From contig OX597831.1 of the NCBI GenBank assembly GCA_951406725.2, positions 55,428,001 to 55,492,000 of the forward strand: a stretch of 64,000 nt of DNA, written 5' to 3'. The position numbers were made by a program, and so were the translations under genes. The first letter of the stretch is position 1; each line of letters begins with the position of its first letter. The DNA comes from Octopus vulgaris. Taxonomy: Eukaryota. The notes under the pieces were generated by a model. The model made no database searches. It saw only the letters and a program-made list of their open reading frames with translations, and was not told the DNA's origin. Of this stretch, positions 3,431 to 55,684 are shown piece after piece.

Positions 3431-3514
3431 AGTGGTTAAAATGTATGATTGTAAACGGCTTTATAACGTTATATATATGCTTGTTTGTATACATACATAC
3501 ATTTTTTATTATTT

Positions 3515-3817
3515 ATGCGCCCTTTTCAAGCCTAGCCAGGCTCATGGGCCCGGTTTCCCGGTTTCTGTGGCATATGTGTTCCCTCCAGCTGGATGGGACG
3601 CCAGTCCAATGCAGCATTACCCAAGAAACAGGAAGAAGAGTGAGAGAAAGTTGGGGCGAAAGAGTACAACAGGGGTCGCCACCACCCCCTGCCGGAGCCT
3701 CGTGGAGCTTTAGGTGTCTTCGCTCAATAAACACACACAACGCCCGGTCTGGAAATCGAAACCGCGATCTTCCGACCGCAAGTCCGCTGCCCTAACCACT
3801 GGGCCATTACGCCTCCA
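3515..3817 (-). mobile_element. tRNA-derived SINE, family C
   Basis: Reverse complement begins gtggaggcgtaatggcccagtggttagggcagcggact (A box) ... ggtttcgatttcc (B box); homologous to 41502-41885 and 49497-49771. Confidence 0.85.
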
Positions 3818-3838
3818 CGCACGCACGCACACACACAC

Positions 3839-3888
<50 letters not shown>

Positions 3889-3899
3889 GCATGCATGCA

Positions 3900-4220
3900 T
3901 TCCATCGGTTACGACGAGTAAAGTTCCAGCTGATCCGATCGATAGAACAGCCTGCTCGCGAAATTAATGTGCAAGTGGCTGAGCACTCCACAGACACGCG
4001 TAACATTAACGTAGTTCTCAAGGAAATTCGGCGTGACACAGAATGTGACAAGGCTGGCCCTTTGAAATACAGGTACAACTCATTTCTGACAGCTGAGTGA
4101 ACTGGAGCAACGTGAAACAAAGTGTCTAGCTCAAGGTCACAACTCGCTACCAGGTATCGAACTTACAACCTTACGATTGTGAGTCGAATACCTCTAACCA
4201 CTAAGCCACGTACTTTCACA
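3900..4220 (-). mobile_element. tRNA-derived SINE related to family C, with CORE-like segment
   Basis: gagtgaactggagcaacgtgaaacaaagtgtctagctcaagg...taaccactaagccac; related copy at 59135-59382. Confidence 0.75.
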
Positions 4221-5899: not shown

Positions 5900-6352
5900 C
5901 ACTGAGGTCGATGTAATCGACTTACACCCTCCCCCGAAATTGCTGGCCTTGTGCCAAAACTTGAAACCAATTTTGTTATTATGAATGAAGGCGACGAACT
6001 GGGAGAATCGTTAGCACCTCGAGAGAAAATACTTTCGTCCGTCGCTTACGTTCTGAGTTCAAATTCCGTCGACTTCGCTTTTCCTTTTTTTCGAGATCGA
6101 TAAAATAAGTACTAGTTGTGTACTGGGGTCGATGTAATCGACTTACCTCTTCTCTCGAAATTACTGGCCTTGTACCAAAATTTGAAACCAATATTTAATT
6201 CTTTATTGCCCACATGGGGCTAAACATAGAAGGGGACAAACAAGAACAAAGGGATTAAGTCGATTGCATCGACTCCAGCGCATAACTGGTACTTATTTAA
6301 TCGACCCCGAAAGGGTGAAAGGCAAAGTCAACCTCGACGGAATTTGAACTCA
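5900..6352. mobile_element. SINE family A fragments, both orientations
   Basis: aaggcgacgaactgggagaatcgttagc...gagttcaaattccg...gtcgatgtaatcgac. Confidence 0.8.
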
Positions 6353-7514
6353 GATGAAGCCAATATCAAAATAAAAAAATTCACACAGCAAACGCAGTAG
6401 AATTTTGTTTATTTTCAGCACGTAGCATAAAAGAACCAATTCAATTTCCATAATTCAATAGGTGGAGTTGACTCTATGATGTGATTAACTTCAATATTTT
6501 TCCAAGTAGGTCCTTCTTCAGAGTTCCGGCATAAATGTTAATTCTTATTAAAAAAAAAGGGAGATGTTAACAACCACTTTGCACAAACTAAGTTCAGCTT
6601 ACCACTTGTCTCAAGTGAAGATGGTATGCAACTGCATAGTTTGTCTAATGTCATGTTTTATATCCCTAACAATGGAATAATTGACGGCTAAAACTGCATT
6701 TTATTCACACGAAGAGAGAATCGTGAGTGGAAGTAAAGATAAACGGAGATTGTAGTTGATGTAGCATTAGCCTGATGTCCACTTCATCTGTACACGATTA
6801 AGAAAGATCCATACATGTAAAATATATTTTGATGTAAAGTGAAATACACAGTTCTATATTTGTCATACTTGTACCTAATAGTATATTTATTATTCGCTGT
6901 CGTGTATTGGCCCAGCAACAATGAAACACCACGAACAGTCAATAGTAACGGTAATGAATAATTGCACTTAAATTTCAGGTCAAACGTTGCGGAGACAAAG
7001 CAGTATTTCTGTCTTTTGTCACGTATTTCAAGCATATCTTATGGTTGGTTGAAATGGATATTCCTAAGGGACTGAGCAGGCAATGCAAAACTGATATGGT
7101 CTCTGGATCATTTTTATAGTTATGACAAATTTATTGAGGATAATTACTAAGGTATACGTTATTGTCAAAAGTTCGACTTAAATCTCTTTCGATTTTCACC
7201 CGTTCATATGAATATCATATGTCGTATTATACACCAGTGTTTTCAAACCTTTTTTTAGATAGGCCCACCTCACTGGAACGTTTTTTTTCTTCTGTGCCCC
7301 CCCCCCCCAAACTGACATTAATGTTAAAAAGAAAAAACAACTTCAGCTTTGTAATAAATGGTTGGCGATGTTTCGGTTGCCAAATGGTTAATAGTAGAAA
7401 CAGATCCCTATTGATAAAAATTAAAAGTCTTTCATGAAAATAGAATTTGTAATATTTATGTACTAACGTTATTTTAAATATTGCTTTAAATTAGTTTTAT
7501 TATTTCAAAATTTA

Positions 7515-9605: not shown

Positions 9606-9866
9606 AGGTGGGGAACATATACGCAAATGAAACCGGAAAAACCGGCCCTTATGAGCCAGGTATATCTCAGGAAGAATCAAACAACAACATATTACTGTTA
9701 CTTATTTTTATTGGAACTTAAAAAGAATGAAAAGTGAAGTTGGCTACCATGAAATATGAACTCAGAATCTATAAGTCCGAAGCTTTGTATTAAATCCTTA
9801 CAATGGCATAAATTCATAAATTTGTAGACAGAAAGAAATGTGTATTGTCGATATGATTGGCATTTT

Positions 9867-10238
9867 AAGGCGGCGAGCTGGCAGAAACGTTAGCACGCTG
9901 GGCGAAATGCGTTGCCGTATTTCGTCTGCCGTTACGTTCTGAGTTCAAATTCCGCCGAGGTCGACTTTGCCTTTCATCCTTTCGGGGTCGATAAATTAAC
10001 TACCAGTTACGCACTAGGGTTGATGTAATCGTCTTAATCCGTTTGTCTGTCCTTGTTTGTCCTCTCTGTGTTTAGCCCCTTGTGGGTGGTAAAGAAATAG
10101 GTATTTCGCCGAGGTCGACTTTGCCTTTCATCCTTTCGGGGTCAATAAATTAAGTACCAGTTGCGTACTGGTTCGATCTAATCGACTGGCCCCTCCCCCC
10201 AAATTTCGGGCCTTGTGCCGAGAGTAGAAAAGATATTA
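9867..10238 (+). mobile_element. SINE family A, full copy plus partial second unit
   Basis: Head ggcggcgagctggcagaaacgttagc; B box gagttcaaattcc; central gcctttcatcctttcggggtcgataaa; tail tttagccccttgtgggtggtaaagaaata. Confidence 0.9.
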
Positions 10239-10239
10239 T

Positions 10240-11065
10240 TGGCAAGACCATTGGAGATATAGTGTTGAGAGTGTGGGTGGAGGGCAGAATCCCTCGTTGC
10301 TTTAAATGTGGCCAAAATGGTCCCATTAGAACACACTGCCCTCTACAGAAGCAGAGAAGTCCGGAGGAAGTTGGAAAGGAGCCGGAGGAGGTGCAGCCGG
10401 AAGAAAAGAGAAACGAAGAACAGTGGACGGTAGCTGAAAGAAGAAAAAGGAAGAGGAAGAAAGGACAGAGTGAAGTAGAACCCCAAACCATACCCTCTCA
10501 TAATACCCACAGACACCAAACCCACCCATTACCCTCCTACACAAAGCAAAAGAAATACAAACACACAAGGATCAACAAACTCCCCCTCCCACTGAAAATT
10601 CTTTCGTTGAAGGTGTGGACAAGGAACTGCTCAATAAGAAAACAAAATGGAAGACTGCAAGATTTGTCCATGTCAAAGGATGAACAAACATTGATGGATG
10701 GCACTCATGTGATCGGGTATCCGAAAGCCAGCCAAAAAGACGAGATATTGAAATTCAAGAGGTGTTGTAAGGCGATATGTGATTTAAAGACGATACCAGA
10801 CAATATAAAGTACGAGGAGCTGTCCGAGAAATATGGTATAGACATTTTAAAGGACTCGGAATTAAAAAGATAAAGGAAGCAAGTGATGCTGCTTGAGGTG
10901 GGGCAAGTAACTCATTTTTATTATCATTTTCATTGGATCATTCATGTACATCATAGTTTAATTTTTAATTTTTTAATTTTTTAATTTATTTTTTTCGTTT
11001 TTATATGTCACCACATGTTTTTGTATTGTCCCCTCTTCGTTGGCCCCTTGTGGGTTATAAAAAAA
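10240..11065 (+). mobile_element. 5'-truncated ORF1-only (HAL1-like) L1/Tx1-type element
   Basis: ORF 10262-10873 with zinc knuckle CFKCGQNGPIRTHC; about 190 bp later a tail tgtcccctcttcgttggccccttgtgggttataaaaaaa; no ORF2. Confidence 0.65.
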
Positions 11066-11080
11066 TCAACTCCGTCGGTT

Positions 11081-12160
11081 ACGACACTCAGGTTTCTTTC
11101 CGTGTTTCCGTTTGGGTTGTTATATTGTTTTGGGAGAGTGATTGTGTGTTATTTTGTGCTTCTTAATATGAAAAAATAAAGACATATGCAGCAGCGACGG
11201 GGAGTCAGGCTTCTGTTGTCCCGAGCTCGTTGAAACAATTTGAAATACGTTGCGATTCAGACACGTTTCAGAGACTTGAGAAATATCAAAATATGGTGAA
11301 AAGAGAGGGGCCAAACGTAAAGTTGGCCCCATCAGATGAAGACAAGATGAAAATAGAAAACAAAGTAGTGGAATACAGATCATTTTCAAGGAAAAATAGA
11401 TTAGAAAACACAACGAAGGAGGAGGTGGAGGAATGCTTAGAAGATTTAAAAGAAAATATATCGTTTTTTACAAAAGGAAAGAAATACGCGATTGTAGAGG
11501 TCACATTTGTATCGGAAGAGGCAGAAAATAAATACGCCAATAAGACGATAACTGGAAAAGAATGGATGTTTCTACCCAATCATCAGGGTAAAAGGCCAAT
11601 GAGGATTAGGGTGGGCAGGATCCCGCCGAGAATTGAGCCAGACTGGCTACTGGCAGCAATTTTTACTGCAGAAAAAGAAGACAATGAAGATGTGAGTTTT
11701 CTTATGGTAACCAGAACCCAGTAAGTAAATTGGTTTAGAGGTTATTTTCACGAGAAGTCAGAGACTATATGATACAATGCCGGAGACACTAGAACTGCTG
11801 AACGGAAACAAACTGGATGTAATGTTGGAAGGGAGACTTCCAGGTGCTATGAATGTGGCGTAAGAGGACACTTTAAAAGAAGATGCCCGAAAATAACAAT
11901 GGAAACGCAAGAAGGCGTGATAGAGGGGAAGAAACAGACACAGGAAGAGGAACAGAAAGCCGAGTTTGTAGAAGTCAAGGAAGAGAGAAAGGAGGGGCTC
12001 ATCGCCGAAAGCTGAACAAGGAAAGAAATATGAAGCACAGGAGCAAGTGGGATCACCGAGGAAAGAGGATAAAAGCAGAATATCACCAAATAAACATACA
12101 GACTCACAATCACACAAACGCACAGATTCACAGATGCATAAACACATAGACATGCATATA
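11081..12160 (+). mobile_element. L1/Tx1-type ORF1 (RRM-like plus CCHC), disrupted
   Basis: ORF 11230-11724 (YAIVEVTFVSEE, IRVGRIPPRIEPDWL); after a stop and frameshift RCYECGVRGHFKRRCP near 11842-11890. Confidence 0.75.
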
Positions 12161-12608
12161 CACAAATTCCGCCGAGGTCGACTTTACCTTTCATTTTTTT
12201 CGGGATTTGTCCCCCACCGGCGCTTGACAACCGTTGTTGATGTGTTTACGTCGTCGTAACCTAGCGATTCGGCAAGAGATACTGGTACAATAAGTAATAG
12301 GTTTTAAAAAATAATTATTATAGTCGATTCATTCGACTAAAATTCTTCAAGGTAGTGCCCCAGCATGACCGCAGTTTAATGACTGAAACAAGTAAGAGAT
12401 AAAAGAACCCACTGCATGAGTTGCCCAATGCCTATAATGATACTAAGGCGGCCTTTGTGAACTACACTTGAATTTTGTAGAGAACTAAATCTCTCTGAGA
12501 GATTTTGAAATGTATTATTTCTATTTTTGAAATCAGTGAATGTATTTTACTAGAATTCTTATGTTTACAAGAGCTAGATGGGCATCTCCAACTAGCAGGC
12601 CATGCTAC

Positions 12609-12651
12609 TCCAGGCTGATGACGAGCAAAGACTCAGAAACTAGTCTCTGAA
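12609..12651 (+). ncRNA. Minimal type I hammerhead ribozyme
   Basis: tccagg-CTGATGA-c-GAGcaaagaCTC-a-GAAA-C-ta-GTC-tctgaa; palindromic stem III ACTAGT; lies in a ~210-bp element (12590-12805) homologous to 38895-39100. Confidence 0.8.
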
Positions 12652-12966
12652 TGCATGCTTAACTGGGTGGAAGTGCTTATCTCCCCCTTGTAAACATAAG
12701 GACACGGGAAATGTGTCAAGGCCGACAGGAAGCGTTGCTGCTTCGTAGGGCTAAACAGCAATAATATTTCCCCCTTCATGGGACTGTCACATTAAGTTGA
12801 CAGTATACAACTACTTTAACAATTGTTGAGGGTTGAAATATTTTCTAGCCCAGAGTCAGAGGTATGCTGGAACAGTTGTCTTTCTTCTACAAACGAATCT
12901 AAATACAGTATTTTCGGAGGGGAATTATTGCCAGCATATGTTAGGCGTTTTTGACACATACTAGAA

Positions 12967-15960: not shown

Positions 15961-16152
15961 GCTTATGGCCATATCACGTTGAAAGCATCGGTTCTCGTCT
16001 GATCACCGAAGTTAAGCAACGTCGAGCCTAGTCAGTACTTAGATGGGTGACCGCTTGGGAAACCTAGGTGCAGTAAGCATAGCACAGTTCAGCGGTGGTG
16101 CCCCAGCATGACCGCGGCCTTCGGGCTAAAACATTTTTAAGGATTTAAGGAT
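15961..16152 (+). mobile_element. 5S rRNA-derived SINE (SINE3) or 5S retropseudogene with LINE-type tail
   Basis: 15961-16080 is a full-length 5S-like sequence (gcttatggcc...gaagttaagcaac...agtacttagatgggtgaccgcttgggaa...gtaagcat) with no oligo-T terminator; followed by ggtgccccagcatg stem-loop tail and (ttaaggat)x2. Confidence 0.85.
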
Positions 16153-17531: not shown

Positions 17532-18413
17532 TATACATCTAAATTTAAAACTAGGATGTAAAGTAATTTATGCGTATCAACGAGTACGCTATTCAGGTCT
17601 TAAAACTTATAGTTACTTCTGCGTGTTTTCCCCTTATCCCTTACAAAAGAGAACAGGAACGTCTGAAAATAGTCATCAAAGTTATAGCCAATCAGAAGTG
17701 TTGAAAAATAAACAAAAACACCACCCGGCAGCTATAAAACAAAGCAACGCCTTCGAATTAAAGGAAGATAAAAGATTGCCAAGGTTATGAACAACATTCA
17801 CATACACGCACAAACACATACAAACATACACACCCACACACACACACGCGCACACACATCTATATACCCACAGATACTCACATACAGACATGCATGCACA
17901 TACATACACAAATACACACACAACCACACTCAAACATACGTACATGTACGCACACACATACACGCACAAACACTAAACAAACATTTCCCCCACACACAGA
18001 CACACACATACTCTCTCCGTCAGTGTGTCGGTCTCGTTTATGTTCAAGGTCACAATCTTTTTTCTTTTTTTTGCAAAACCGTAGACGCTTATATTCCCCC
18101 CTTTCCTAAACGAGTAGTAATTTATTGACTACGTGACGCTTGAAGGTAAAATGGAAAATTTGGAACGTACGCATAACAGCCTCGATTTTATTAGCAAAAG
18201 CAAATATGGTCGATCTAACCGTCTTTTTTATATAATAATAATAATAATAATAATTGTGTACAGTGCTCAGGTGCACTACAACTCATCTAAAGTGTATATA
18301 TAATCAGGTGAAGTTTCGGCGGATTTCGGAACAGAAAGAAACACAAGCGGCGATTTTTCTCTTACATTTATGTACTAGATCTCAGAATGATAGAAGTCGA
18401 ATCTGACAAGAAT

Positions 18414-20525
18414 ATGTTCTGAGTTCAAATACCGTCGGGGTCGTTTTAACGTATCAGACGCACGGATCTTTTCGGTTTGAACGGCAATTTTTTCTAGCGG
18501 TGTCATATGAAATTACCTTTCATCCTTTCGGAGTCGATAAATTAAGTACCAGTTACGCACTGGAGTTGATGTAATCGTCTTAATCCGTTTGTCTGTCCTT
18601 GTTTGTCCCCTCTGTGTTTAGCCCCTTGTGGGTAGTAAAGAAATAGGTATTTCATCTGACTTTATTTTCTGAGTTCAAATTCCGCCGAGGTCCACTTTGC
18701 CTTTCATCCTTTCGGGGTCGATAAATGTTTATTTGAGTAATTGGAATTCGGAACAGAAAGAAACACAAGCGGCGATTTTTCTCTTACATTTATGTACTAG
18801 ATCTCAGAATTGTTTGTCCACTTTATGTTTAGCCCTTTGTGGGTAGTAAAGAAATAGGTATTTCGTCTGCCGCTACGTTCTGAGTTCAAATTCCGCCGAG
18901 GTCGACTTTGCCTTTCATCCTTTCGGGATCGATAAATTAAGTACCAGTTACGCACTGGAGTTGATGTAATCGTCTTAATCCGTTTGTCTGTCCTTGTTTG
19001 TCCCCTCTGTGTTTAGCCCCTTATGGGTAGTAAAGAAATAGGTATTTCATCTGACTTTATTTTCTGAGTTCAAATTCCGCCGAGGTCCACTTTGCCTTTC
19101 ATCCTTTCGGGGTCGATAAATTTAATACCAGTTGAACACTGAGGTCGAGGTAATCGACTTAACCCCACCCTAAAAATTTATGTTTAGCCCTTTGTGGGTA
19201 GTAAAGAAATAGGTATTTCGTCTGCCGCTACGTTCTGAGTTCAAATTCCGCCGAGGTCGACTTTGCCTTTCATCCTTTCGGGATCGATAAATTAAGTGCC
19301 AGTTACGCACTGGGGTCGATGTAATCGTCTTAATCCGTTTGTCTGTCCTTGTTTGTCCCCTCTATGTTTAGCCCCTTTTGGGGCAGTAAAGAAATAAGAA
19401 AATAAGAATCGTCAGCACGCCGGCCGAAATGCTAAACTGTATTTCGCCCGTCGCTACTTTCTAAGTTCAAATTCTACCGAGGTCGATTTTTCCTTCCATC
19501 CTTTCGGGGTCGATAAATTTAATACCAGTTGAACACTGAGGTCGAGGTAATCGACTTAACCCCACCCTAAAATTTATGGCCTTCTGCTTACAGTAGAAAG
19601 GATTATTATTATTATTATTGCTTTCCGGCTCTTTACGTTCAGAACTCAAATGCCGATGAGGTCGCTTTTGCCTTTGATCCTTTCCGGGTCGATGAAATAA
19701 GTACCAGCTGAGAACTGGGTCGATGTAATCGACTTACACCCTCGCTTAAAATTCCATGCCTTGTAACTATAGTAGAAAGAATTATTATTTGTAACTATAG
19801 TAGAAAGAATTATTATTGCTGTAACTATAGTAGAAAGAATTATTGCTGTTGCAAAGGCGGCGAGCATGGCTGAAGCGTTAGAGCATCAGATAAATATACC
19901 TATTGATGTTTCTTCCAGCTCTTTACATTGTTAGTTCGAATTCCGTCAAAGTCAATTTTACTTTTCATCCTTTCGGGGTCGATAAAGTAAGTACCAACCA
20001 AATATTGGGGCTAATGTAATCAATTAATCCATCTCCCCTAAAATTGCTGACTTTGTTCCAATATTAAAACAACTTTTTACATTATTGTCGTTGTTAAGGC
20101 GGTGAGCTTGGCCAGAGCGTTAGAGCGCCGGTCAAAATGCCTTGAGCCAAAATTCGAATCTATTATCGTAAGCACGTCATAAGAAATGCCTAGTGGTACT
20201 TCTGACTCTTTACTTTCTGGTTCGAAATTCCGCCGAGGGCGACCTTGGCTTTCATCCTTTCGGGGTCGATAAAATACTGGCGCCGAAGTAATCGACTTAG
20301 CCTATCTCTCAAAACTACTGACCTTGTTCCAAAATTTGAAATCATTATAAGACAGCGAAATGGCAAAATCGTTAGCCCACCGGACAAAATGTTTAGCGGC
20401 GTTCAAATTCCGCCGAGGTTGTCTGCATTCCATCCTTTCGAGGTCGATAAAATAAGTACCAGACAAGTCCTGGGGTCGATGTAATCAATTAACTCCCTGC
20501 CTTAAAACATTTCAGGCCTTGTGCC
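18414..20525. repeat. Cluster/tandem array of SINE family A units with local duplications
   Basis: Repeated aaagaaatag|gtatttc junctions near 18646, 18857, 19041 and 19213; unique block 18325-18388 duplicated at 18746-18810. Confidence 0.85.
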
Positions 20526-21259: not shown

Positions 21260-22030
21260 GTTATTTAGAACGTTGCTTATTGTGAACATGCATTGCTGGC
21301 GCACCGTCTGTGCACACGCCAACAACGTGCTCCCAGTTTATGCCATGCGTGTTAAAGAATTGGATCCACTTTCTGGGATACATCGTTTGTAGCGGTTCGG
21401 GTGTTACGGGTTTCGCAAAAAAGGAATTCATCTTAGAGATGCTTGTTATGCACATAACGTACATAAACACAAAGTTGTGCTAAATCCACCACGTCAGTGG
21501 TTTCATCAATTTGGATGGCGACATAGTTAAATATTGATGTTTTTTATCTTTGAGATGACCTGAGACAAAATATTATCAGGCATCTCAGCGATTTTTTGAC
21601 TGACGGTGTTGTTGGAAAGTGAAACCTGTTTAAGCTTCTATAGTTCGGACGTTCCGAGCACGATGCCCTCCAAAGTTATGAGGTCGTTTTTTTTTTTTGC
21701 TTTTTTTGGGGGGGTTCAGCAATTTTCCTTGAAACCTCGAAGGAGGCTTTCAGACCAGAAACAATGTCCTGCATATACATTCCTGTGTCAGCAATCCTGG
21801 ATTTGACCAATTTGTCATCTTGGTGTCTGAAAAATTCCTCGTCTTGGTTGACTGCACTGGGATGTTTCATTTCCAAATGTCTCTTTAGCCTGCTGGGCTT
21901 GAGCGGAGAAGCTGCTAATATATCAGAGCACAAAACACACTGTGGTTTTTCCACTCCACCAGCAGTAAGCACGGTGAAACTGAAGCTCAAATATGACTTG
22001 TCATATCTCATTTTCTTTGTAAAAGACATT
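21260..22030 (-). pseudogene. hAT Buster/Charlie-type transposase remnant
   Basis: RYDKSYLSFSFT...PQCVLCSDIL...KPSRLKRHLEMKH (BED finger); WEHVVGVCTDGAPAM (catalytic D motif); probable TIR gtttgggaaccaagg near 24968-24982. Confidence 0.85.
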
Positions 22031-22132
22031 CTACAAATAAATATAACAATATGTAACTGTTGGACTGTAAATGCACAGAATTTTGTACTATTTCATTCTG
22101 TTGAGAAAACTTTGTTACTTTTACCAGTATAA

Positions 22133-30322: not shown

Positions 30323-31685
30323 GAGGGTGTCCACAAAGTCTACGTACATGGGGATTAACACATACTTTTAAAATAAATCAATTTTATTTAATTATAATGT
30401 TAATAAATAATATTTTCAAAGTGATTGCCATCATTTTTCAATGCACAACTTGATGCGCCTTGCAAAATTCAGGTGAACTTGATTAAATAAGTCTACATTG
30501 CCATCAATTTCAGCACACTGACTGGTAATGCGTTCTCTCGTGTGTTTTAAATCTGTAATCTTTATTGTAATCTTTCTCTTTCAACATAGCCCAGAAAAAG
30601 AAATCAAGGGGAGAAAGGTCTGGTGTACGAGGGGACCTTTCCATATGAGCCCTTCTTTCAATCCAGTGAGGAAAAGTGTCATTAAGCCAATCTCTAACAG
30701 TTGTGGCAAAATGGGTAGGGGCCCCATCCTGCTGAAAACAATTCGGAAGGCCCTCGCCTAGGCGCTCAATTTGAGATATTAATTTGTCTCTCAATATGTT
30801 TACATAAGTCTCATCCGTTACATGTTCAATGAAGAAGGGTCCTAGAACATGAGCTTTCCACAAACCACACCACACCATCACCTTTTTGCTGCCTTGCTGT
30901 TTGGATGGATCCATCCAATGTGGATTACCTCGAGACCAGTATAGAAGATTCTGTCTGTTGACCTCACCATTTACATAAAACGTAGCTTTGTCACTGAACA
31001 ACAAAGTTTTTCTTAAAATTGATATTTTCATCCAATTTATCTGAAAACCATTCGCACGTCTACATTCGTCTACCAGGGTCGTCTTCATTTAAGTGAAACA
31101 ATATTTGTAGGTTGTATCGATGAAACTTTTCCTCAACCAGCATTTTGTGGATGGTTGGTTTTGGAACACCTAACACCGTGGATGTCCGACGAAGTGATTT
31201 CTTTGGGCTAGCAGAAACTTTAGCCATGACAGCCTCTTTCGTTTCATCTGAAGTTTTTGGTCGCCCGGAACGGGGTTTATTCAAAACACTGCCTGTTTCT
31301 TTAAATTTCTTGATCAATTTCCCGACGGCAGTAAAAACAATAGATTACCTATAAGTCGAAGATTAAATTCTTCCGCAATTTTGAGATAAGACCATCCCTC
31401 TCGTCCACTTAATAATACTAACTCGATTCTTTCTTCTTTAGACAGATCCATCATTCGATCTGGTATTTTTCTTCTTTAGACAGAGCCATCATTCGATCTG
31501 GGATTTTTCTTCTTTAGACAGAGCCATCATTCGATCATCTGTAGAAAAAATAACAAATAAATTTAGAAAAGTAAAGTATTTCTTTTTACTTAATTTAAAC
31601 AAAAGTAAAAAAGGAAAATTATTATTTCTTATATCTGTTTATGTTATGGTTTTATTCCATGTACCCAGACTTCGTGGACACCCTA
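30323..31685 (-). mobile_element. Tc1/mariner element, DD40D (rosa/DD41D-like), frameshifted transposase
   Basis: TIRs agggtgtccacaaagtct / agacttcgtggacaccct; KFKETGSV..RSGRP, FSDKATF, FQQDGAP, PDLSPLDFF; 40 residues between second and third D. Confidence 0.9.
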
Positions 31686-31729: not shown

Positions 31730-32150
31730 TTTTAAAAATAATTTTTTGTAACTAAACACTTTCAAACTTCAGACACTGGTAGAATGTGTCATATAAAACA
31801 TCTTTTACTCTTAGCATTTTTGAGAAAAACTTATATTTACGAAGTTATTTCACCTTAAAGTTCTCTAATTTCGGTAATTTCAACCAATCAATGACGTGTA
31901 TCCAGCTGAATAAAATTACTGCCGTTGTTTGTCAACAACAACTATCGGCGGTGTATTTTTCGCTTGTCACTGTTATTTATGACATCGTTCGTACGTTTGT
32001 ACTGGTTTTAAGGTTTTAGGGTTAGGGTTAAGGTTTTAGGGTTAGGGTTAGGGTTTTAGGGTTTTAGGGTTAGGGTTTTAGGGTTAGGGTTGTCATAAAT
32101 AAAAGTGACAAACGAAATATACTCCTCTCATCCTGTTACATGCCAAATTT
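31730..32150. mobile_element. Non-autonomous DNA element with internal TTAGGG-like repeats
   Basis: gtaactaaacacttt...actggtagaatgtg shared with 63354-63757; (ttaggg/ttttaggg)n at 32005-32090. Confidence 0.65.
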
Positions 32151-33773: not shown

Positions 33774-34039
33774 TTTAATTTATTACCCTCTCAGATTCAC
33801 ACGCTTACTGCAGCGACCCTTCAGTTTTTTTAAGCCCTGTAAAAGAACTCGGAATTGGTGGGCTTCTAATCCGGCTTTTCGCAATACCTTTAAAGTCAGA
33901 AACTGTTCAGCCCCTCCCCTCGTATATATCGTGTGTATGATATTATTTTAATTTAAGGCGGCGAGCTGGCAGAAACGTTAGCACGCCCGGCGAAATGCGT
34001 AGCAGTATGGAAGACTAGGATAAAAGGAATTAAGACAGG

Positions 34040-36694
34040 TGTTACGAAATGTGTGAATATCTTCTCTGCACTGTTTGGGTGCAAGAAGCAATCACTATCC
34101 GTTGCCTTTAATAATCCAGATTCTACCAGTCAGAAACAACAAGACGCAGACGTAAAAAATATATATCTACTTTATTCTCTTATGACAGTAACAAATAAGT
34201 GGTATATCTGGTATCCCTTTGGTATAGATGTGTCAGAGCTGAACTTTATCGCTGTAGAATTTACAGTGTTCAAATGCTAACGACACTGGTCAAAGATGGC
34301 GTCCGGAGAAAGGAAGATGATGTGGTCGGCAACAAATGTCAGGGAGAAACGAAGATAATACGCGTCTTCTTCTATGAAAAGGCTGACTGCTGCTATCAAA
34401 TCCGGACAGAGAGAAATATACGTGTTGTACCTTCGATAGCCGTGTCTCAAGTCACTGCCTACTGGACGCTGGTGGTCAACGTCCTACGCTCCCCTTGCCT
34501 CGCGGCTAAACTGCCACGTAGGCAAATGGTCCTACTTCCGGTGGTGAAAAGCACCAACCCCGCACGCGCGAAACAGAAATGGACGGTGCGCGAGCGCGCA
34601 CCGTTATATAGGATCACTACAAAGCTCCCCTCCAGTGCCTAAGCACGACACAAAATTCCTTGTAGTGACTTTAAAACTCAAGGTGGACACCAGATAACCA
34701 AATAGCACACAATATAATAAAAATGGCAAAATTTACATCATACACAAGAAATTTACCAAAAGGAAAAAAGAGAAAAAATACTCAAAATGAGCAAAAATCA
34801 AAAGTGCATGCGTGAAAGTGGATACGTCACAAAGCATAGAGCCTTCCGCTGTAGGGAGCGGAAGGTAGGCAAACCTACAGTTAATAAACCTAGGCGAAGT
34901 TAAAATCCAACTCCTCTAAAGGTGGTTGATCCTGCGAAATAACAGTTAAATCAATTGCTGCAGGAGAGGAAATTGGAATCGACAGATAGATCGCCAGTAA
35001 CACAAAAGGCAGACAGTGCTTCAGCTGAAAGTGTAAGGTTAGCAAGGTGACAGTGCAAACATGCTGGTGTGATGCGCGGGACAGATAATTTTCTCTGTTA
35101 ATTGCGTGACCAACAGGGGTCTAACAGGGAAAAAATTACGCCTATACATAGGCGCAGCGCATGTGAACATCCGACGTTCTTTGAGTCGGGAAAAGAACTA
35201 AGCTAACGCAAACGTGTTGCAAAAACAAGGCAGTACACGTGCTGAGCAATGGTGCATGAATGCAATAGGGCTTGCCAGACCGAAAAACAGCAATGAATAT
35301 GCCATGGTTAATGTAGGAACAAAAGTGTGACATGCTGGCGCGTTATAATGGACAAACAACCCTCTCTATGTATACGTGACCCCTAGGGTCTTACAGAAAT
35401 GAGGTGTGTCCACAAAGGCAAATTTAGCATGGAAAAAAAAAGCGAGAAAAGCATGTGTGACGTATGAATGTGAGAGAGATAGCATTTATGTGTGTACGTG
35501 TGTGCGACAGAAATACAAACAAGGTGAATGCGAGCAAAAATAAAAACACAGCGCATAGGAAAAAAGTCTCTCAGGGCTATTTCAGACAAGATGGAGTTAG
35601 TTTACCAGTCCGTAATAGCCTGATACACAATAGCAGTTCGTTCTGTAACAGAATGTTGAAATCACAAATGCAGATGCCGATTGAACACATATCGTGTAGC
35701 GGTTGTAGCTTCGATGCTGTGACAGGTTAAATCGTTACAGAAGATCTCGCAGGTAGACTGTGCTGTTAATTCTTGGTGTGCTATGCACGAACAGCGTGAA
35801 AGCTAAACTTCCGCGAGTTGCTATTTACATCTTGTTGAGGTCGACGGTGTTGATAGGCGACGGTGGTGGAGGCGACTGTGGTGGACTTGAGACACATTGT
35901 TCTTAGTGGTGATGGCGACGAAGATAACGACGACGTGAAGTCGAAAGACGACGATGGCGATGACGGTAGAGAAAAGGCATCGATGATATGATGGCGTCCG
36001 TCATTATTGCTGAAGAATAAGAAAGGCTCCTTCTATAACTGTTGAGGGGACCGGAAACAAATCGTCGAAAGATGATGACTGCGTAGAGTTGATCGTGTTC
36101 CGACTTGGCAGAAAAACTGGATTTCTTTGTTGTGAAGTGATCTCTGGTTTTAGACGAGAATCACGTCGGGGGTCACCAGTGTTCCGACTTGTGTGAATAT
36201 CTTCTCTGCACTGTTTGGGTGCAAGAAGCAATCACTATCCGTTGCCTTTAATAATCCAGATTCTACCAGTCAGAAACAACAAGACGCAGACGTAAAAAAT
36301 ATATATCTACTTTATTCTCTTATGACAGTAACAAATAAGTGGTATATCTGGTATCCCTTTGGTATAGATGTGTCAGAGCTGAACTTTATCGCTGTAGAAT
36401 TTACAGTGTTCAAATGCTAACGACACTGGTCAAAGATGGCGTCAGGGAGAAACGAAGATAATACGCGTCTTCTTCTATGAAAAGGCTGACTGCTGCAATC
36501 AAATCCGGACAGAGAGAAATATACGTGTTGTACCTTCGATAGCCGTGTCTCAAGTCACTGCCTACTGGACGCTGGTGGTCAACGTCCTACGCTCCCCTTG
36601 CCTCGCGGCTAAACTGCCACGTAGGCAAATGGTCCTACTTCCGGTGGTGAAAAGCACCAACCCCGCACGCGCACCGTTATATAGGATCACTACA
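34040..36694 (-). mobile_element. Complete non-autonomous LTR retrotransposon (Gypsy-type)
   Basis: LTRs 34040-34621 and 36180-36694 (TG...CA); PBS TGGTGACCCCCGACGTGAT; PPT ggaggggag near 34625-34633; 4-bp TSD cagg; 1.56-kb decayed internal region with no recognisable pol. Confidence 0.9.
36160..36178 (-). promoter_or_regulatory. Primer binding site complementary to tRNA-Trp 3' end
   Basis: Plus strand atcacgtcgggggtcacca directly next to the LTR. Confidence 0.85.
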
Positions 36695-37080
36695 CAGGCA
36701 ACTTTATCGCTGGTCACAATTTACGATCTTTTTTTTTTCTTTTCATTTGAAAAGGAAACTGTGGCTGGAGAAGAGGTGTCTGTCGGAGTGTACGTTCCAA
36801 AAAAGATGGAAGCATGTTGCACGAGTGTTGTGCGTGCAAGGAACCGTGTGAATAGACGGGAAAAAAAAGGTATCAGCGGTAGATCGGGGCTTGTGGGATC
36901 GGAGCGTAACTTGATCATCGCTTCATTTGTATTGTTTTTGTACAGTGTATTCCATTCGATTTTTTATGTATTGTATTTTATTTTTAAAGTCACATTTATG
37001 TAAAATCATATCGATTCACTGATCCCATCAGTTGTACTATCCATATCTATGTTTGGCCCCTGGTGGGCAATAAAGAAATT

Positions 37081-37634
37081 CGTATTTCGTCTGCCGCTAC
37101 GTTCTGAGTTCAAATTCCGCCGAGGTTGACTTTACCTTTCATCCTTTCGGGGGTCGATGAATTAAGTACCAGTTACCCACTGGGGTCAATATAATCGTCT
37201 TAATCCGTTTGTCTGTCCTTGTCGGGCCTCTCTGTGTTTAGTCCCTTGTGGGTAGTAAAGAAATAGGTATTTCGTCTGCCGCTACGTTCTGAGTTCAAAT
37301 TCCACCGAGGTTGACTTTACCTTTCATCCTTTCGGGGTTGATGAATTAAGTACCAGTTACCCACTGGGGTCGATGTAATCGACTTAATCCGTTTTTCTGT
37401 CCTTGTCTGTCCTCTCTGTGTTTAGCCCCTTGTGGGTAGTAAAGAAATAGGTATTTCGTCTGCCGCTACGTTCTGAGTTCAAATTCCGCCGAGGTTGACT
37501 TTGCCTTTCATCCTTCCGGGGTCGATGAATTAAGTACCAGTTACCCACTGGAGTCGATATAATCGACTTAATCCGTTTTTCTGTCCTTCTTGGTCCTCTC
37601 TGTGTTTAGCCCCTTGTGGGTAGTAAAGAAATAG
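37081..37634 (+). repeat. Three tandem headless SINE A units (~184 bp)
   Basis: Units start gtatttcgtctgccgctacg at 37082, 37267 and 37451. Confidence 0.9.
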
Positions 37635-38084
37635 ATATTATTTTAATTCTTGTTTTTGTTGACAAATTTAGCGAATAATCAATCTAGTCTGTCTCTCTCA
37701 CATGCGCGCACATGGATGCGAGTGTGGAGGGGTTGTATGCGTGTATGAGAAAGGAAACGAGAACAAAAGGAATTCTGAGCGACTGAGTGCGGGTAGAGAC
37801 AAATCAGGAGTGTTTTTGGAGTCCTTCAGATTTTTTTCTCTTTTCTTTCATGCACCCAAATATTTCTGCCCACATTACAAAACACAATACGCACACATCG
37901 TATTATTCTCCATTCTTTTACTTCGTTACGCACGTCCTCAACTCTAAACGTATTCATACAAATAATCCCAGCCCCCAGCCCCCACCGCTCTTTCAAATCA
38001 TTTCATATTTCCATTTTTTTTGTTGTTGTTGTTGAAAACATCACCGTTATCATTCATCATCATCATTAATAGTAGACGGTGGCA

Positions 38085-38776: not shown

Positions 38777-39037
38777 CTAATGTAGGATAAACATTTTTTC
38801 GGGAAAAAAACTTCATCAATGGCCAGCATATCAAAGAATACCTTTAAAGGTTAAATTTATAATATATATATATATATAAAGTGGTGGTTTGTTGCTGTTG
38901 CCAACTTAATGTTGCAGTCCCAGGAAAGGGAAGAATGCTACTGCTATTTAACTCCAGTTGGCTATGTAACACAAGCGTTCTGTGTCCTTAAGTTTTCAAA
39001 CAGGGGAGATAAGCACCTTCACCCAGCAAAGCCAGCA

Positions 39038-39080
39038 TCCAGAGACTAGTTTCTGAGTCATTGCTCTTCATCAGTCTGGA
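39038..39080 (-). ncRNA. Minimal type I hammerhead ribozyme
   Basis: tccaga-CTGATGA-a-GAGcaatgaCTC-a-GAAA-C-ta-GTC-tctgga; perfect 6-bp stem I. Confidence 0.85.
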
Positions 39081-39100
39081 GTAGCTTGGCTTCCTAGCGG

Positions 39101-41040
39101 ATTTTATTTTTATTAGGACAATAAATGCCATACACAGATGGTACGATACAGGACAATACATAAAAAAAAAAACGTTATAATGAGTTCGAATGATGCTTTG
39201 TTCTTTTTTAAATTTTTATGAAATAATTAGATTTAATTATCGTCTTTTTTTCCTTTTAAGGGAGGGGATTATACCCGGTTGCCTCAGCGGCCCAGCGACT
39301 GCCCCTTTCCTTTTTTTTTAATGCAGATTAAGTAGAGTTACTTGCACCCAGCTTTCTTAACATAGCCTTCCATCTTTCATCAAACACACTTTGCGACAGG
39401 ATCCTCTTCTCCATCCCTACCTCGCTCTTCAGGTGATATCTGAAGAATTGTAGCAAACCAGGGCCAGAGATGAAGGATCCCGTCACGAGTCCTTGCATTC
39501 TAGTCTTCCACACACATTCTTTCAACACAGCAACTGTACAGAAAAAACATACCTCACCTTCCTTTGAGTGTCCAGTGGGCGGTACAATCATTATTATAGA
39601 TTCAGCCGATAGCTGTACTCTTCCTAAATGCGACAACACCTGTTCGACGTAAATCATCTAGCCTGACAGCTCCCGACAATGTACAAGGGCGTGCTGGACG
39701 GTTTCATCGTCCAGCCCACGTCTTGGACATGTCGTTGGCACTGACATTCCGTGCCTGGGTAACTTATCTCGAACAGGTAAAGCATTCCTGTAACACTGCC
39801 AGGTCAGGGATTTTTGGTAATTACCCAAATACCCTGGCCCGAAAGTATTTTTGAACAAGTTGGTGAGTTGGTTCTCATCGAACCCCAGAGCTTCTCCTAG
39901 AGCGTCATCGTTGTTCTGCTCTACCAACCCTCTATACAAAACCGAGGCGGCGTTCCCACTGCCGGCCTTGCCCGTCTTGTGGATAAGCACAAGTGCCTGT
40001 CGACACTCCTTTTGCCATTCAGTCAGATTACGTCTTTTAATAAAACCGGGTTTAAATCGCTCCAGAGAAGCTAGTCGCAGAAAGAAATCCTCTGCTAGCG
40101 GATTCCATACCTTATCTCACCTTCCAGGTAACGCCAGAGATGCCTCAGCCCCCAACTCATGTCTGCGCATCATTAGCCAGGGCATCCCCAACCATCATTT
40201 AGCGGTTCCTGGCAGCAAACGGAGCGCCTCACAAGCGGCTTCCCCTCTTCCACAAAAAGCGGAAAAGGAGGCGTTCCAACTGGTTTAGCCGCAAATCAGG
40301 AGAAGGGACAACGGTCAGGCGGTAGGTGATTACAGATGCAATAAACAACTGTACCACCTCTGCCCTTCCTTTCAAGGATAGAGCCTTTCCAGACCAAGTC
40401 CGTACTAGAGCTTCTACCTTGTCTGCCACCTCGCTCCAATTCTTCTCCGTCCGGGAGTCTGGTCCAAACCAAACTCCAAACAACCTAACAGAACCATCTG
40501 TCCAGTGACACACGACACTGGACGATATCGACTTGCTCCTCTAGATGCCGTGGTGCAAGCCAATGGACTTGTCCTTGTTAACTTTTGCCCCTGCCACCGC
40601 CTCGTATCCTTTGATAGCGTCCTCTACACAAGGTAGCTGCGCTTCATTGGACTCGATGAAGGTGACGTCATCCGCATAAGCAGAAACCGACTTACAGCAT
40701 CCGATTTCACTAGGGTTGCCTCCCAACTTCTCCAGCTTCCGCAACAATGGCTCAAAAGCCAACACGTACAGAAGCGGAGACAGGGGATACGCTTGATCGA
40801 AAATAGCTCCGACAGGTAACCGTTTATCTGGACGGTAGATTTAATGCCGCTATACATGGTGGAGATCTACCTACGGAAGTACGAGCCCAGCCCAGCCGCT
40901 TCGAGGGCCGCCGCCAGGTACTGGTGGTCTACCCTATCAAACGCTTTACTTTGGTCTAAATGGACCATGGCCCCCACCTTTGCCGGTTAATTTACCCACC
41001 CTGTCTAAGGTGTAGCGGATAAGGTGAAGATTGTCCTGAA
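39101..41040 (-). mobile_element. 5'-truncated Tx1/L1-clade LINE (RT plus C-terminal domain, disrupted) with A-rich tail
   Basis: SAYADDVT, FGVWFG, WSGKALSLKGRAEV, CPR..DETVQHALVHC; SINE A head abuts its 5' end at 41041-41100. Confidence 0.9.
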
Positions 41041-41146
41041 CAGACGAAATACCGCTAAGCATTTCGCCTGGCGTGCTAACGTTTCAGCCAGCTGGCCGCC
41101 ACCGTGGGAAGCTTCTTACCACACAACCACTCCTGCGTCTATATAC

Positions 41147-41501: not shown

Positions 41502-41885
41502 TGTGGAGGCGCAATGGCCCAGTGGTTAGGGCAGCGGAATCGCGGTCATAGGATCGCGGTTTCGATTCCTAGACCGGGCGTTGTGAGTGTTTATTGAGCG
41601 AAAACACCTAAAGCTCCACGAGGCTCCGGCAGGGATGGTGGTGATCCCTGCTGTACTCTTTCACCACAACTTTCTCTCACTCTTACTTCCTGTTTCTGTT
41701 GTACCTGTATTTCAAAGGGCCGGCCTTGTCACTCTCTGTGTCACGCTGAATCTCCCCGAGAACTACGTTAAGGGTACACGTGTCTGTGGAGTGCTCAGCC
41801 ACTTACACGTTAATTTCACGAGCAGGCTGTTCCGTTGATTCGGATCAACCGGAACCCTCGTCGTCGCAACCAACGGAGTGCTTCC
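41502..41885 (+). mobile_element. SINE family C, full length
   Basis: tRNA-like A/B boxes; TSD atatatatctgccc on both sides. Confidence 0.9.
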
Positions 41886-49496: not shown

Positions 49497-49771
49497 TCAT
49501 GTCTGGCTCATAAGGGCCGGTTTCCCGGTTTCCTTGGCATATAGGTTCCCCACCTGGACGGGACGCCGGTCCGTCGCAGGTGAGCTGCAAGAGGAAAGAG
49601 TGAGAGAAAGTTGTGGCGAAAGAGTCAGCAGAAGTTCGCCATTACCTTCTGCTGGAGCGGCGTGGAGCTTAGGTGTTTCGATCATAAACACATACATCAC
49701 CCAGTCTGAGATTCGAACCCGCGATCCCTCGACCGCGAGTCCGCTTTAACCCCTAGGCCATGTGCCTCCAC
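49497..49771 (-). mobile_element. SINE family C variant inserted in an old inverted repeat (49325-49925)
   Basis: Homology to 3515-3817; ttataaatta on both flanks; 32-bp perfect palindrome ttataaattacatagtactatgtaatttataa at about 49772-49803. Confidence 0.8.
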
Positions 49772-54350: not shown

Positions 54351-55684
54351 CCCCCGCCTCCCACCATGCCTTCTATGAAAAGTCCTTGTGAAAGTCCTAA
54401 GTGTCCTATAACGCTGGAGGATAAGTAGGCAATGATAAAACGTCATGAAAAAGTTGCAGCGATTGCACGATCTTTTGAGAGTAAATCGGACAACTGTATC
54501 GACGATTGTGCATAATAAAGACAAGATTTTAACATATATCACATCTGAAGCACCAGAGATGAGGAACACAGTCTTAAACAAGAAAAGAAGCAAAATCTTT
54601 GAAGAAATGGAAAGTCTTCTAACTATTTGGATTGATAGGCAGAATCGCCAGAATGCTACTCTTAGTCAAGAGATCCTTCAGGAGAAAGCGTTGTCTTTGG
54701 GGACCTGAAGGAAAAATATCCAGATAAGAAAGATATAGAGTTCAAGGCAAGTCAAAGATGATATATGAGATTTAAAAAACGGAGACGTTATCACTTCCTT
54801 AAGAAGCAAGGTGAAAGCGCATCAGTTGACAAACATGCAGCAGCGAATTTTCCTGCGACATTGAAGAAAATCATTTTCACACATTTGAAAAAAATATCTT
54901 GCTATGTTCGAAGATATGGATCCAAATGCTCAACGCTTTTCTAAGATTATGGGGGCTTATCACGAAGCTTTTGCTCCTTATAATGTAATCCTTGACGAAA
55001 AGAAGACAGTTCAAGGCACTCTTGACTAGTTTTTTTTAAACGCATCGAACGACAACGAGAACTGCCAGAATCAGCTGATGACATTGACGTCGACGATCCT
55101 CGGCCATCTAGGGGCGGCGAGCTGGCAGAATCGTTAGCACGCTGGGCGAAATGCGTAGCCGTATTTCGTCTGCCGTTACGTTCTAAGTTCAAATTCCGCC
55201 AAGGTCGACTTTGCCTTTCATCCTTTGGGGGTCGATAAATAAAGTACCAGTTACGCACTGGGGTCGATGTAATCGACTTGATCCGTTTGTCTGTCCTTGT
55301 TTGTCCCCTCTATGTTTAGCCCCTTGTGGGTAATAAAGAAACAGATACTCGGCCATCTACATCTACAATGTAAACATCACCGAATTTTACGTATTGGTAA
55401 ATTTAAAATACTTTATTATTTCTTTTTTTTTTTTCTTTACTTTATTACAAAATAATAATTATTTGCTTCTAAGCTTAAAATAGGTTTTTATTAACCGTGT
55501 CTTACTGAAATTGTAAGCTTAAAAAATACTTTTATTAACCATGTCTTATCGAAAATGCATTCATAGAGTGCTGGGGAACGGCTATTAGCAGTTTAGGCTA
55601 GGCTAGCCTGGCCTATAGACACGCAATTCGACTTAAGTCGTGTCTCCTGGAACCAATTAACGACTTAGAGTGAGGTATACCTGT
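54351..55684 (+). mobile_element. Tigger/pogo element remnant (CENP-B HTH), internally deleted, with SINE A insertion 55110-55342
   Basis: NRTTVSTIVHNKDKI...EEMESLLTIWIDRQNR..LSQEILQEKALSL; end gaggtatacctg|ta; SINE flanked by ctcggccatcta TSD. Confidence 0.85.

What the first reader, a model, noticed from the sequence alone, without database searches (positions are those of the whole stretch)
33957..37634. SINE A seems to carry the target site of its own Tx1-like partner LINE, giving self-nesting arrays
Seen: a Tx1-like LINE 3' end sits in SINE A between ...cgtagcagtat and cgtatttcgtctg. Its tail (tatgtttggcccctggtgggcaataaagaaat) closely matches the SINE A tail (tgtttagccccttgtgggtagtaaagaaat). 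Tandem SINE units restart at the same gtatttc site after a tail (about 10101, 18647, 18858, 19042, 19214, 37267, 37451). A second Tx1 copy joins a SINE A head at gtatttcgtctg (41041). Established: many Tx1-clade elements are sequence-specific, and SINEs borrow LINE 3' tails. Inference: a loop in which the SINE is both cargo and landing pad.
Basis: partly seen in the sequence, partly recalled or inferred. Interest (0 to 1): 0.7.

Follow-up and report, generated by a model that had tools for sequence, protein, structure and literature searches.

The report
Octopus SINE carrying its LINE's target
In what is likely an octopus genome, a short jumping element (SINE) shares its tail with a Tx1-like LINE, and one LINE copy and several SINE copies join the same spot inside the SINE's own head, so the SINE likely serves as both passenger and landing site, although the three-unit array here was likely copied from one unit rather than built by repeated fresh insertions.

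Summary
The observation largely holds. A 413-bp 5'-truncated L1/Tx1-like LINE end sits in a SINE head at 34008/37081. Its tail matches the SINE tail (0/2000 shuffles). 8 of 13 such tails in the window (7 SINE, 1 LINE) are followed by the same head site, and 3 of the other 5 by a look-alike word (GATATT, GATACT or AATATT) that opens a 12-16-bp TSD. Corrections: 86% of the 3.07-kb insert is an unmentioned non-coding LTR element. The second LINE is another family (43% aa), has no significant tail match and no SINE at its 3' end. The seven SINE-SINE junctions collapse to about four groups. The three bodies at 37081-37633 form one mosaic group inside one 15-bp TSD, which points to local or multimer copying. 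Most likely the LINE nicks at S-GTATTT, which the SINE head carries; nesting created the tail-to-head-site junction (twice into an older-tailed subfamily), and copying then multiplied it. Only one intact LINE 3' flank supports this, and no eukaryote DNA collection was available. Closest precedent: crocodilian Tx1-Mar/SINEU, whose target is a Mariner, not the SINE itself. New variant of a known kind; interest 0.5.

The parts
33939..33953 (+). Left copy of a 15-bp target-site duplication that encloses the whole head + LINE + three-body structure
   Evidence: 15/15 match; 1 of 400 random window pairs scored 13 or more
33954..34008 (+). SINE A head (5' part, A-box-like word), cut at the loop of a 12-bp inverted repeat
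34009..34039 (+). 5' piece of the truncated L1/Tx1-like LINE (ORF2 C-terminal codons); joined to the head through a 4-5-nt microhomology
34040..36694 (-). Non-coding LTR retrotransposon inserted into the LINE piece: LTRs 36180-36694 and 34040-34621 (TG...CA), primer-binding-like and purine-rich tracts, 4-bp TSD at 34036-34039 and 36695-36698
36699..37080 (+). 3' piece of the LINE: end of ORF2 (to about 36851), 3' UTR, and the tail shared with SINE A (about 37048-37080, 4-bp stem with 5-nt loop)
37081..37265 (+). SINE A body 1 (rest of the interrupted SINE, starts cgtatttc; B-box-like word at 37106; Tx1-type tail)
37266..37449 (+). SINE A body 2 (headless, starts ggtatttc; T5 at 37392)
37450..37633 (+). 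SINE A body 3 (headless, starts ggtatttc; T5 at 37576)
37634..37648 (+). Right copy of the 15-bp TSD; begins with a look-alike of the head site
41041..41104 (-). SINE A head (older-type sequence) ending 13 nt into the head site
39101..41040 (-). Second, different L1/Tx1-like LINE family, 5'-truncated in the RT domain, with stops and frameshifts; 3' flank is not SINE A
9866..10244 (+). Mixed dimer: young head and body with Tx1-type tail, then ggtatttc and a body with the older tail; 12/13-bp TSD-like repeat at 9850-9862 and 10232-10244
18321..19620 (+). SINE A cluster with four tail-to-site junctions, partly produced by local duplication (98% identical blocks); includes old-type bodies after Tx1-type tails
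55095..55359 (+). Solo full-length Tx1-tailed SINE A (55113-55343) with 15/16-bp TSD starting with a look-alike of the head site
6184..6370 (-). Solo 5'-truncated Tx1-tailed SINE A (6354-6196) with 11/12-bp TSD starting with a look-alike of the head site

Best explanation
SINE A carries the 3' tail of an L1/Tx1-like LINE, and that LINE's machinery likely prefers to insert at a short word (S-GTATTT, relaxed to GATAYT) that lies in the SINE's own head, so the SINE likely acts as both cargo and landing site; nesting likely created the tail-to-head-site junction, and arrays were then likely multiplied by copying rather than by a fresh insertion for every unit. Shown in the sequence: the shared tail with a stem-loop, one LINE inserted at the site, seven SINE tails followed by the site, solo insertions at look-alike words with 12-16-bp TSDs, and one origin of the three focal units. 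Inferred steps: (a) the LINE endonuclease, perhaps aided by pairing of read-through RNA (tail + ggtatt) with the nicked strand, opens the site; (b) the second nick 12-16 nt downstream leaves an overhang identical to the SINE's own sequence, so a SINE cDNA anneals in register and gives a headless unit with no second head; (c) the old head's A-like box and the new unit's B-like box keep their spacing and young bodies mostly lack T4 runs, so Pol III could read through and multimers could move as one piece; (d) unequal exchange or conversion between neighbouring units changes number and sequence afterwards. A LINE landing there separates the two boxes and likely silences that SINE copy.
For: Tail match 0/2000 shuffles; a stem of 4 bp or more round a CTTGT-like loop in 13 of 14 Tx1-type tails (relaxed search) against 12 of 172 exact CTTGT words window-wide. 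8 of 13 tails followed by the head site. 2 of 3 ORF2 fragments in the window have a junction within 16 nt of the site; post-hoc chance 2e-5 to 6e-5 counting one end per fragment, about four times higher if either end counts. 3 of the 5 tails not followed by SINE are followed by a hexamer within 2 mismatches of GGTATT, which occurs at 4.2% of positions (about 7e-4 by my arithmetic). TSDs of 15, 16 and 12 bp bracket the 13-nt offset of the second LINE's 5' junction. Two separate junctions (10101; 18647/19042) lead from a Tx1-type tail into an old-type body, which simple tandem duplication of one copy cannot make. Copying step: array units differ at 9-11 of 184 positions from each other and 13-21 from other loci, form one group (80/91), share variants in all three pairings, and lie inside one TSD. 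Precedent for Tx1 families that target other repeats, for SINEs sharing that target, and for co-transcription aiding specificity: PMC4494074.
Against: Only one LINE 3' junction lies at the site. The second LINE's 3' flank is another repeat and its tail match is not significant. The third ORF2 fragment (2624-3433) shows no SINE A at either end. An ORF1-like element with the same tail type (0/2000) ends at 11067 on an unrelated flank. The first LINE's 5' junction has at most a 5-nt duplication, not 12-16. No old-type head precedes the mixed dimer at 9866, so head replacement or whole-dimer mobilisation must be assumed. None of 151 LINE homologues starts with a SINE-head peptide and no protein matched the tail-to-body junction frame; both tests are weak. 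Pol III boxes are assigned by eye: a strict B-box pattern failed and no tRNA was called.
Confidence: 0.6

Rival explanations
1. Strict self-nesting: each headless unit is a fresh, target-specific insertion of a SINE transcript into a resident SINE head, so arrays grow one retrotransposition at a time.
For: All seven SINE-SINE junctions are identical in position and match the LINE 3' junction. Every unit has a complete tail, unlike arrays from internal unequal crossover (contrast PMC11481361). Mixed young/old dimers exist.
Against: Focal units are one group with three variants absent from the four other young copies compared, and mosaic pairwise variants. The 18.3-19.6-kb junctions include a 98% duplicate. 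Junctions carry G where young heads carry C. Units 2 and 3 share a T5.
Confidence: 0.15
2. One historical accident: a single ancestral junction (for example the event that gave the SINE its LINE tail) made a multimeric master; all arrays descend from it by read-through retrotransposition and unequal crossover, and the LINE has only a loose A/T-rich preference, so the SINE head is not a special target.
For: Invariant junction in 7 of 7 SINE-SINE cases; one TSD round the whole array and a TSD-like repeat round the whole dimer; solos insert outside SINEs; two of three ORF2 fragments lack a SINE 3' flank.
Against: It does not explain a LINE inserted exactly at the site with its own junction bases, a second LINE family joining 13 nt away, or two different old-type bodies behind the same junction.
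Confidence: 0.15
3. Structure- or RNA-driven junctions: the site is the loop of a 12-bp hairpin. SINE RNA is cut or reverse transcription stops there, and the reverse transcriptase jumps end-to-end between SINE and LINE RNAs, giving headless units and head-LINE chimaeras without DNA target specificity.
For: The site lies at the loop of a long inverted repeat in young heads. The second LINE looks like a head + LINE chimaera with no SINE remainder. Template switching adds heads in SINEU and Tx1-Mar (PMC4494074).
Against: The first LINE would need a jump in and a jump out at the same site. Solo insertions at look-alike DNA words have no such hairpin yet show the same word. No TSD surrounds the head + second LINE unit. 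Head folding is not clearly beyond shuffles (z -1.7).
Confidence: 0.1

Closest known systems
Tx1-Mar LINEs and SINEU of crocodilians (Kojima 2015, PMC4494074; main text read)
   Same: Tx1-clade LINEs and the SINEs they likely mobilise share a target inside another repeat; tandem SINE insertions result; dependence on target co-transcription is proposed.
   Different: The target there is the DNA transposon Mariner-N4_AMi, tandem SINEU-3 copies are whole and separated by a TSD, and SINEU shares no 3' tail with a known LINE. Here the target is in the SINE's own head, units are headless, and the tail is shared.
Xenopus Tx1 in Tx1D; Keno (U2), Kibi/Koshi (microsatellites), Utopia (seen as passages in PMC4494074 and PMC4640811)
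   Same: Non-LTR elements with precise 3' and variable 5' junctions at a site in a multicopy sequence; some families relax to short look-alike words.
   Different: Targets are DNA transposons, RNA genes or simple repeats, not a SINE that uses the same LINE.
Tandem Alu inserts mobilised by L1 (passage in PMC3415434; mechanism via the A-tail and TSD recalled)
   Same: A SINE provides sites for the endonuclease that moves it, and copies cluster.
   Different: Low-specificity T/A-rich site at the tail or linker, whole elements added; no fixed internal restart point in the promoter region.
Bivalve tandem SINEs TSD-(SINE)n-TSD (PMC11481361, section 15 read) and SINE-derived satellites of squamates (PMC10702118, passages)
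   Same: One full head, several head-truncated units, one enclosing TSD; ascribed to unequal recombination.
   Different: There the internal units also lose part of the tail; here every unit keeps the whole tail and restarts where a LINE also inserts.
Octopus tRNA-derived SINEs OK/OR1/OR2 (Ohshima and Okada 1994; seen only as a citation, family name OK recalled)
   Same: SINE A translations occur in Octopus vulgaris and O. bimaculoides predicted proteins at 82-95% identity, so it is an abundant Octopus repeat and probably already catalogued.
   Different: No reference sequence could be compared; no description of a Tx1 partner or self-target was found in the searched papers.

Membership tests
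Tx1 clade (L1 superfamily) LINE | ORF2 with APE endonuclease, RT and C-terminal zinc-binding domain | tested here: met
   Second LINE has RT-region homology and zf-RVT; first LINE matches the same C-terminus (E 4e-8); near-full-length relatives P0163 (Argonauta hians) and P0159 carry Exo_endo_phos + RVT_1 + zf-RVT. The endonuclease itself is not in the window.
Tx1 clade (L1 superfamily) LINE | RT closer to L1 than to R2-type elements | tested here: met
   Relative P0001 hits LINE-1 ORF2p at E 2e-17 to 5e-17 and R2 at 2e-6 or weaker.
Tx1 clade (L1 superfamily) LINE | Placement within Tx1 rather than L1 proper on an RT tree with named references | not testable with these tools
   No hit carried a Tx1 name; the label Tx1-like rests on recall, on the non-poly(A) tail, and on L1-Tx1 being the L1-type group listed for O. 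vulgaris (PMC13282606).
Target-specific Tx1 family (criterion of PMC4494074) | More than 20% of flanks lie in one type of sequence | tested here: inconclusive
   1 of 1 copies of family 1; 1 of 2 ORF2-bearing LINEs with a 3' end; 2 of 3 ORF2 fragments with either junction at the site. Too few.
SINE with LINE-derived tail | 3' tail shared with a partner LINE | tested here: met
   About 34 bp at 82-91% identity, 0/2000 shuffles, shared stem-loop.
SINE with LINE-derived tail | Short, non-coding, dispersed, flanked by variable TSDs | tested here: met
   About 230 bp, over 20 pieces in 64 kb, TSDs of 12-16 bp.
SINE with LINE-derived tail | tRNA-derived head with Pol III A and B boxes | tested here: inconclusive
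   A-like word at position 14 in 3 of 3 heads tested; strict B-box pattern not found though a one-base-longer word is present; ARAGORN and Rfam call no tRNA. Box consensus recalled.
Octopus OK SINE / CORE or Meta SINE superfamilies | Sequence match to the family consensus or central domain | not testable with these tools
   No repeat library available; supplement search of PMC4824008 found nothing and one file could not be searched.
Tx1-Mar/SINEU system | LINE and SINE insert into a Mariner DNA transposon; snRNA-derived head | tested here: not met
   Target is the SINE head; no U1/U2 match in the window. Works like it, is not a member.
Bivalve-type TSD-(SINE)n-TSD recombination arrays | Internal units truncated at both head and tail | tested here: not met
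   All three focal units have complete tails; the single enclosing TSD is met.

The most novel reading that the evidence does not exclude
A family of Tx1-like LINEs in octopods is sequence-specific for the promoter region of the very SINE it mobilises. Every new SINE copy is a new safe harbour for the LINE and for further SINE copies; in-register annealing regenerates an intact promoter and a fresh target at every round, and read-through RNA carries the target word behind the tail and sharpens specificity. The SINE would be a self-renewing target array, a feedback loop that could help explain the SINE load of Octopus genomes (11.6% in O. vulgaris, PMC13282606).
Probability: 0.35. Interest if true: 0.72.

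Novelty: new variant of a known kind. Interest (0 to 1): 0.5.

Why it matters
Target-specific LINEs usually depend on host repeats (rDNA, snRNA genes, telomeres, microsatellites) or on an unrelated transposon. A LINE whose target is supplied by its own non-autonomous passenger would turn the SINE from pure parasite into a provider of harmless landing sites, with positive feedback on copy number. It is directly testable: O. vulgaris has 13 recently active L1-Tx1 families with 421 near-full-length young insertions (PMC13282606), so flanks can be counted and an intact endonuclease recovered. It also matters for repeat annotation, since headless multimers and nested LINE/LTR pieces distort SINE consensus sequences and age estimates.

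Tried and rejected
Protein proxies for junctions: no SINE-head N-terminus among 151 LINE homologues; no hit for the 41-aa frame across the LINE-tail/SINE-body junction among 22-72-aa proteins; the SINE head frame found 4 Octopus proteins, none fused to RT. These are weak negatives. A 6-nt match to the SINE body just after the second LINE's tail was considered as a remnant of the target and rejected: it overlaps the start of another repeat that has a second copy at 12592. Folding energies of single tails are no better than shuffles (the window given for the second LINE cut off its tail end, corrected); the hairpin claim rests on stem counts only. Rfam and ARAGORN gave no tRNA call for either SINE head. 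The ORF1-like element got no Pfam family and only unnamed eukaryotic look-alikes in the Atlas. My first LTR boundary (34031) was wrong and gave 514/524; corrected to 34040 and 511/515. The site count double-counts a few copies (20 used, about 17 real), which makes the chance estimate conservative. Pure unequal crossover as the origin of the first junction was rejected because the junction is identical at three loci and leads into different subfamilies; it is kept as the likely later multiplier.
Full report
Setting. The window is repeat-rich eukaryotic DNA with no tRNA gene and one 5S match. A reading frame of the SINE A head hits predicted proteins of Octopus vulgaris and O. bimaculoides at 82-95% identity, and named close relatives of the LINE come from the octopod Argonauta hians. 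An Octopus origin is therefore likely. No eukaryotic DNA collection was open, so all nucleotide evidence comes from these 64 kb.

Anatomy of 33939-37648. A perfect 15-bp TSD (33939-33953, 37634-37648) encloses the whole structure; 1 of 400 random window pairs scored 13 or more. Inside lie a SINE head (33954-34008), a 3072-bp insert, and three SINE bodies (37081-37265, 37266-37449, 37450-37633). Only 413 bp of the insert are LINE (34009-34039 and 36699-37080). The rest is a minus-strand LTR element (34040-36694) with TG...CA ends, a 4-bp TSD, LTRs identical at 511 of 515 aligned positions, a primer-binding-like tract (tRNA-Trp-like by recall) and no coding frame. The order of events shown by nesting is SINE, then LINE into the SINE head, then LTR element into the LINE.

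The LINE and the tail. The LINE piece encodes an ORF2 C-terminus that matches relatives with APE endonuclease, RT and zf-RVT domains; a relative is far closer to LINE-1 ORF2p than to R2. No hit carried the name Tx1, so 'Tx1-like' is by recall and context. The LINE's last 34 bp match SINE A tails at 82-91% and beat all 2000 shuffles. A stem of at least 4 bp closes a CTTGT-like loop in 13 of 14 tails of this type under a relaxed search, against 12 of 172 exact CTTGT words in the window. SINE A has a second, older tail on the same head and core; several of these keep the loop with a different stem.

What follows the tails. Of 13 Tx1-type tails found with up to 3 mismatches, 8 are followed by the head site: 7 SINE tails by ggtatttc and the LINE tail by cgtatttc. 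Three are followed by TSDs of 15, 16 and 12 bp that begin gatatt, gatact and aatatt; words within two mismatches of GGTATT occur at 4.2% of positions, so 3 of 5 is unlikely by chance (about 7e-4, my arithmetic). Two tails do not fit: 19395, and 11066, which ends an ORF1-like element. This points to a preference for a short word that the SINE head happens to carry; it cannot tell endonuclease preference from pairing of read-through RNA with the nicked strand.

The second LINE. 39101-41040 (minus) is a different family: 43% identity over 46 residues to the first, tail match not significant (112 of 2000), though a 4-bp stem with a 5-nt loop is present. Its 5' end joins a SINE head 13 nt into the site, which fits the TSD lengths of solo copies. 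Its 3' flank is another repeat, not the SINE remainder, and no TSD surrounds head plus LINE. It supports targeting only by one junction and could be a template-switch chimaera. A third ORF2 fragment (2624-3433) has no SINE A at its ends. Two of three fragments touching the site within 16 nt has a post-hoc chance of 2e-5 to 6e-5 for one end, about four times more for either end.

How the arrays formed. The seven SINE-SINE junctions reduce to about four groups: 10101; 18647/19042 (inside blocks 98% identical over 214 bp); 18858/19213 (6 differences in 184); 37267/37451. In two groups the unit after the tail is old-type, so a Tx1-tailed SINE was placed in front of a different subfamily at exactly the head site. 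This is the best sign of real SINE-into-SINE insertion, although no old-type head is left upstream. The focal array tells another story. Its units differ from each other at 9-11 of 184 positions and from the four other young copies at 13-21, form one group (80/91), share three variants absent from those copies, and share further variants in all three pairings. Units 2 and 3 share a T5 run that would likely end Pol III transcription, which suggests at least one DNA-level copy event. All seven junctions have G before gtatttc while young heads have C, so the junction looks inherited from a master or templated by RNA. Divergence within the array is similar to that between some separate loci (9 of 184 for 9916 versus 18857), so the array is about as old as the insertion.

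Mechanism (inferred). The LINE machinery recognises the tail and primes at S-GTATTT or a look-alike, with a second nick 12-16 nt downstream. In a SINE head the overhang equals the SINE's own sequence, so a SINE cDNA would anneal in register and give a headless unit. The A-like box upstream and the B-like box in the new unit would keep their spacing, and most young bodies lack T4 runs, so read-through multimers are plausible. Later exchange between neighbours reshapes arrays. The site also lies at the loop of a 12-bp inverted repeat, which leaves room for a structure- or RNA-driven rival. Pol III boxes are by eye. Confidence 0.6; strict one-insertion-per-unit nesting 0.15; single ancestral junction with no real targeting 0.15; hairpin/template jumping 0.1.

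Known systems and novelty. PMC4494074 (parts 1-4 of 5 read) describes Tx1 families that target Tx1D, U2, microsatellites, Mariner, Harbinger and LTR elements, SINEU sharing the Mariner target, and tandem SINEU-3 by sequential insertion. PMC11481361 (passages and section 15) describes bivalve TSD-(SINE)n-TSD arrays, whose internal units also lose tail sequence. PMC13282606 (parts 1-2 of 3 and a supplement search) lists 80 L1-Tx1 families in O. vulgaris, 13 recently active, with no target analysis; its library is on Zenodo and could not be read. Seen as passages only: PMC4824008, PMC10294476, PMC4758252, PMC10702118, PMC3747384, PMC4640811, PMC8967140, PMC10088271, PMC3415434. Ohshima and Okada 1994 and Kojima and Fujiwara 2004 were seen only as citations. 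Ten searches returned no listing that describes a LINE targeting the head of its own partner SINE; Repbase reports and subscription papers were not searchable and may hold one.

Verdict. New variant of a known kind; interest 0.5, rising to about 0.7 if genome-wide flanks confirm a self-supplied target.

Noticed in passing
window 34040-36694 (-): Young non-coding LTR retrotransposon (LTRs 99.2% identical, 1.56-kb internal region without ORF, 4-bp TSD) nested in the LINE fragment; one LTR lacks 37- and 30-bp stretches present in the other.
   Followed up: partly
window about 10245-11067 and 11068-12160 (+): Two head-to-tail elements with ORF1-like zinc-knuckle frames and no RT; the first ends in a tail like that of SINE A (0/2000 shuffles). 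Possibly half-LINE (ORF1-only) passengers of the same machinery; no Pfam family, unnamed Atlas look-alikes. The second starts with a word resembling the antisense tail of the other SINE family.
   Followed up: partly
older SINE A tails, e.g. 5960, 10235, 20530, 42460: The older tail type keeps the same 5-nt loop as the Tx1-type tail but with a different, still pairing stem in several copies (others are broken), hinting at a shared RNA recognition signal across partner LINEs.
   Followed up: partly
window 18321-19620: Local duplication (98% identical blocks, including 68 bp of non-SINE DNA) inside a dense SINE cluster; could be a real rearrangement or an assembly artefact.
   Followed up: partly
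window 41505-41885 (+), 3624-4079 (-), 49588-49769 (-): A second, tRNA-like-headed SINE family; at 3624-4079 its two halves lie in swapped order round a microsatellite.
   Followed up: no
window 38880-39097 (-) and 12592-12802 (+): Repeat with a hammerhead-like core word (Penelope-like by recall) directly after the second LINE's tail.
   Followed up: no
window 15961-16079 (+): Full-length 5S rRNA match (104.7 bits), isolated.
   Followed up: no
window 32004-32091: Short interstitial run of TTAGGG-type telomere repeats.
   Followed up: no
window 30510-31088 (-) and 21676-22092 (-): Frames that look like DNA-transposase fragments (Tc1/mariner-like and hAT-like by recall); not searched.
   Followed up: no
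proteins P0153-P0156: Octopus gene models (cytochrome P450, EF-hand, MFS) end in translated SINE A sequence: likely annotation artefacts or exonisation.
   Followed up: no
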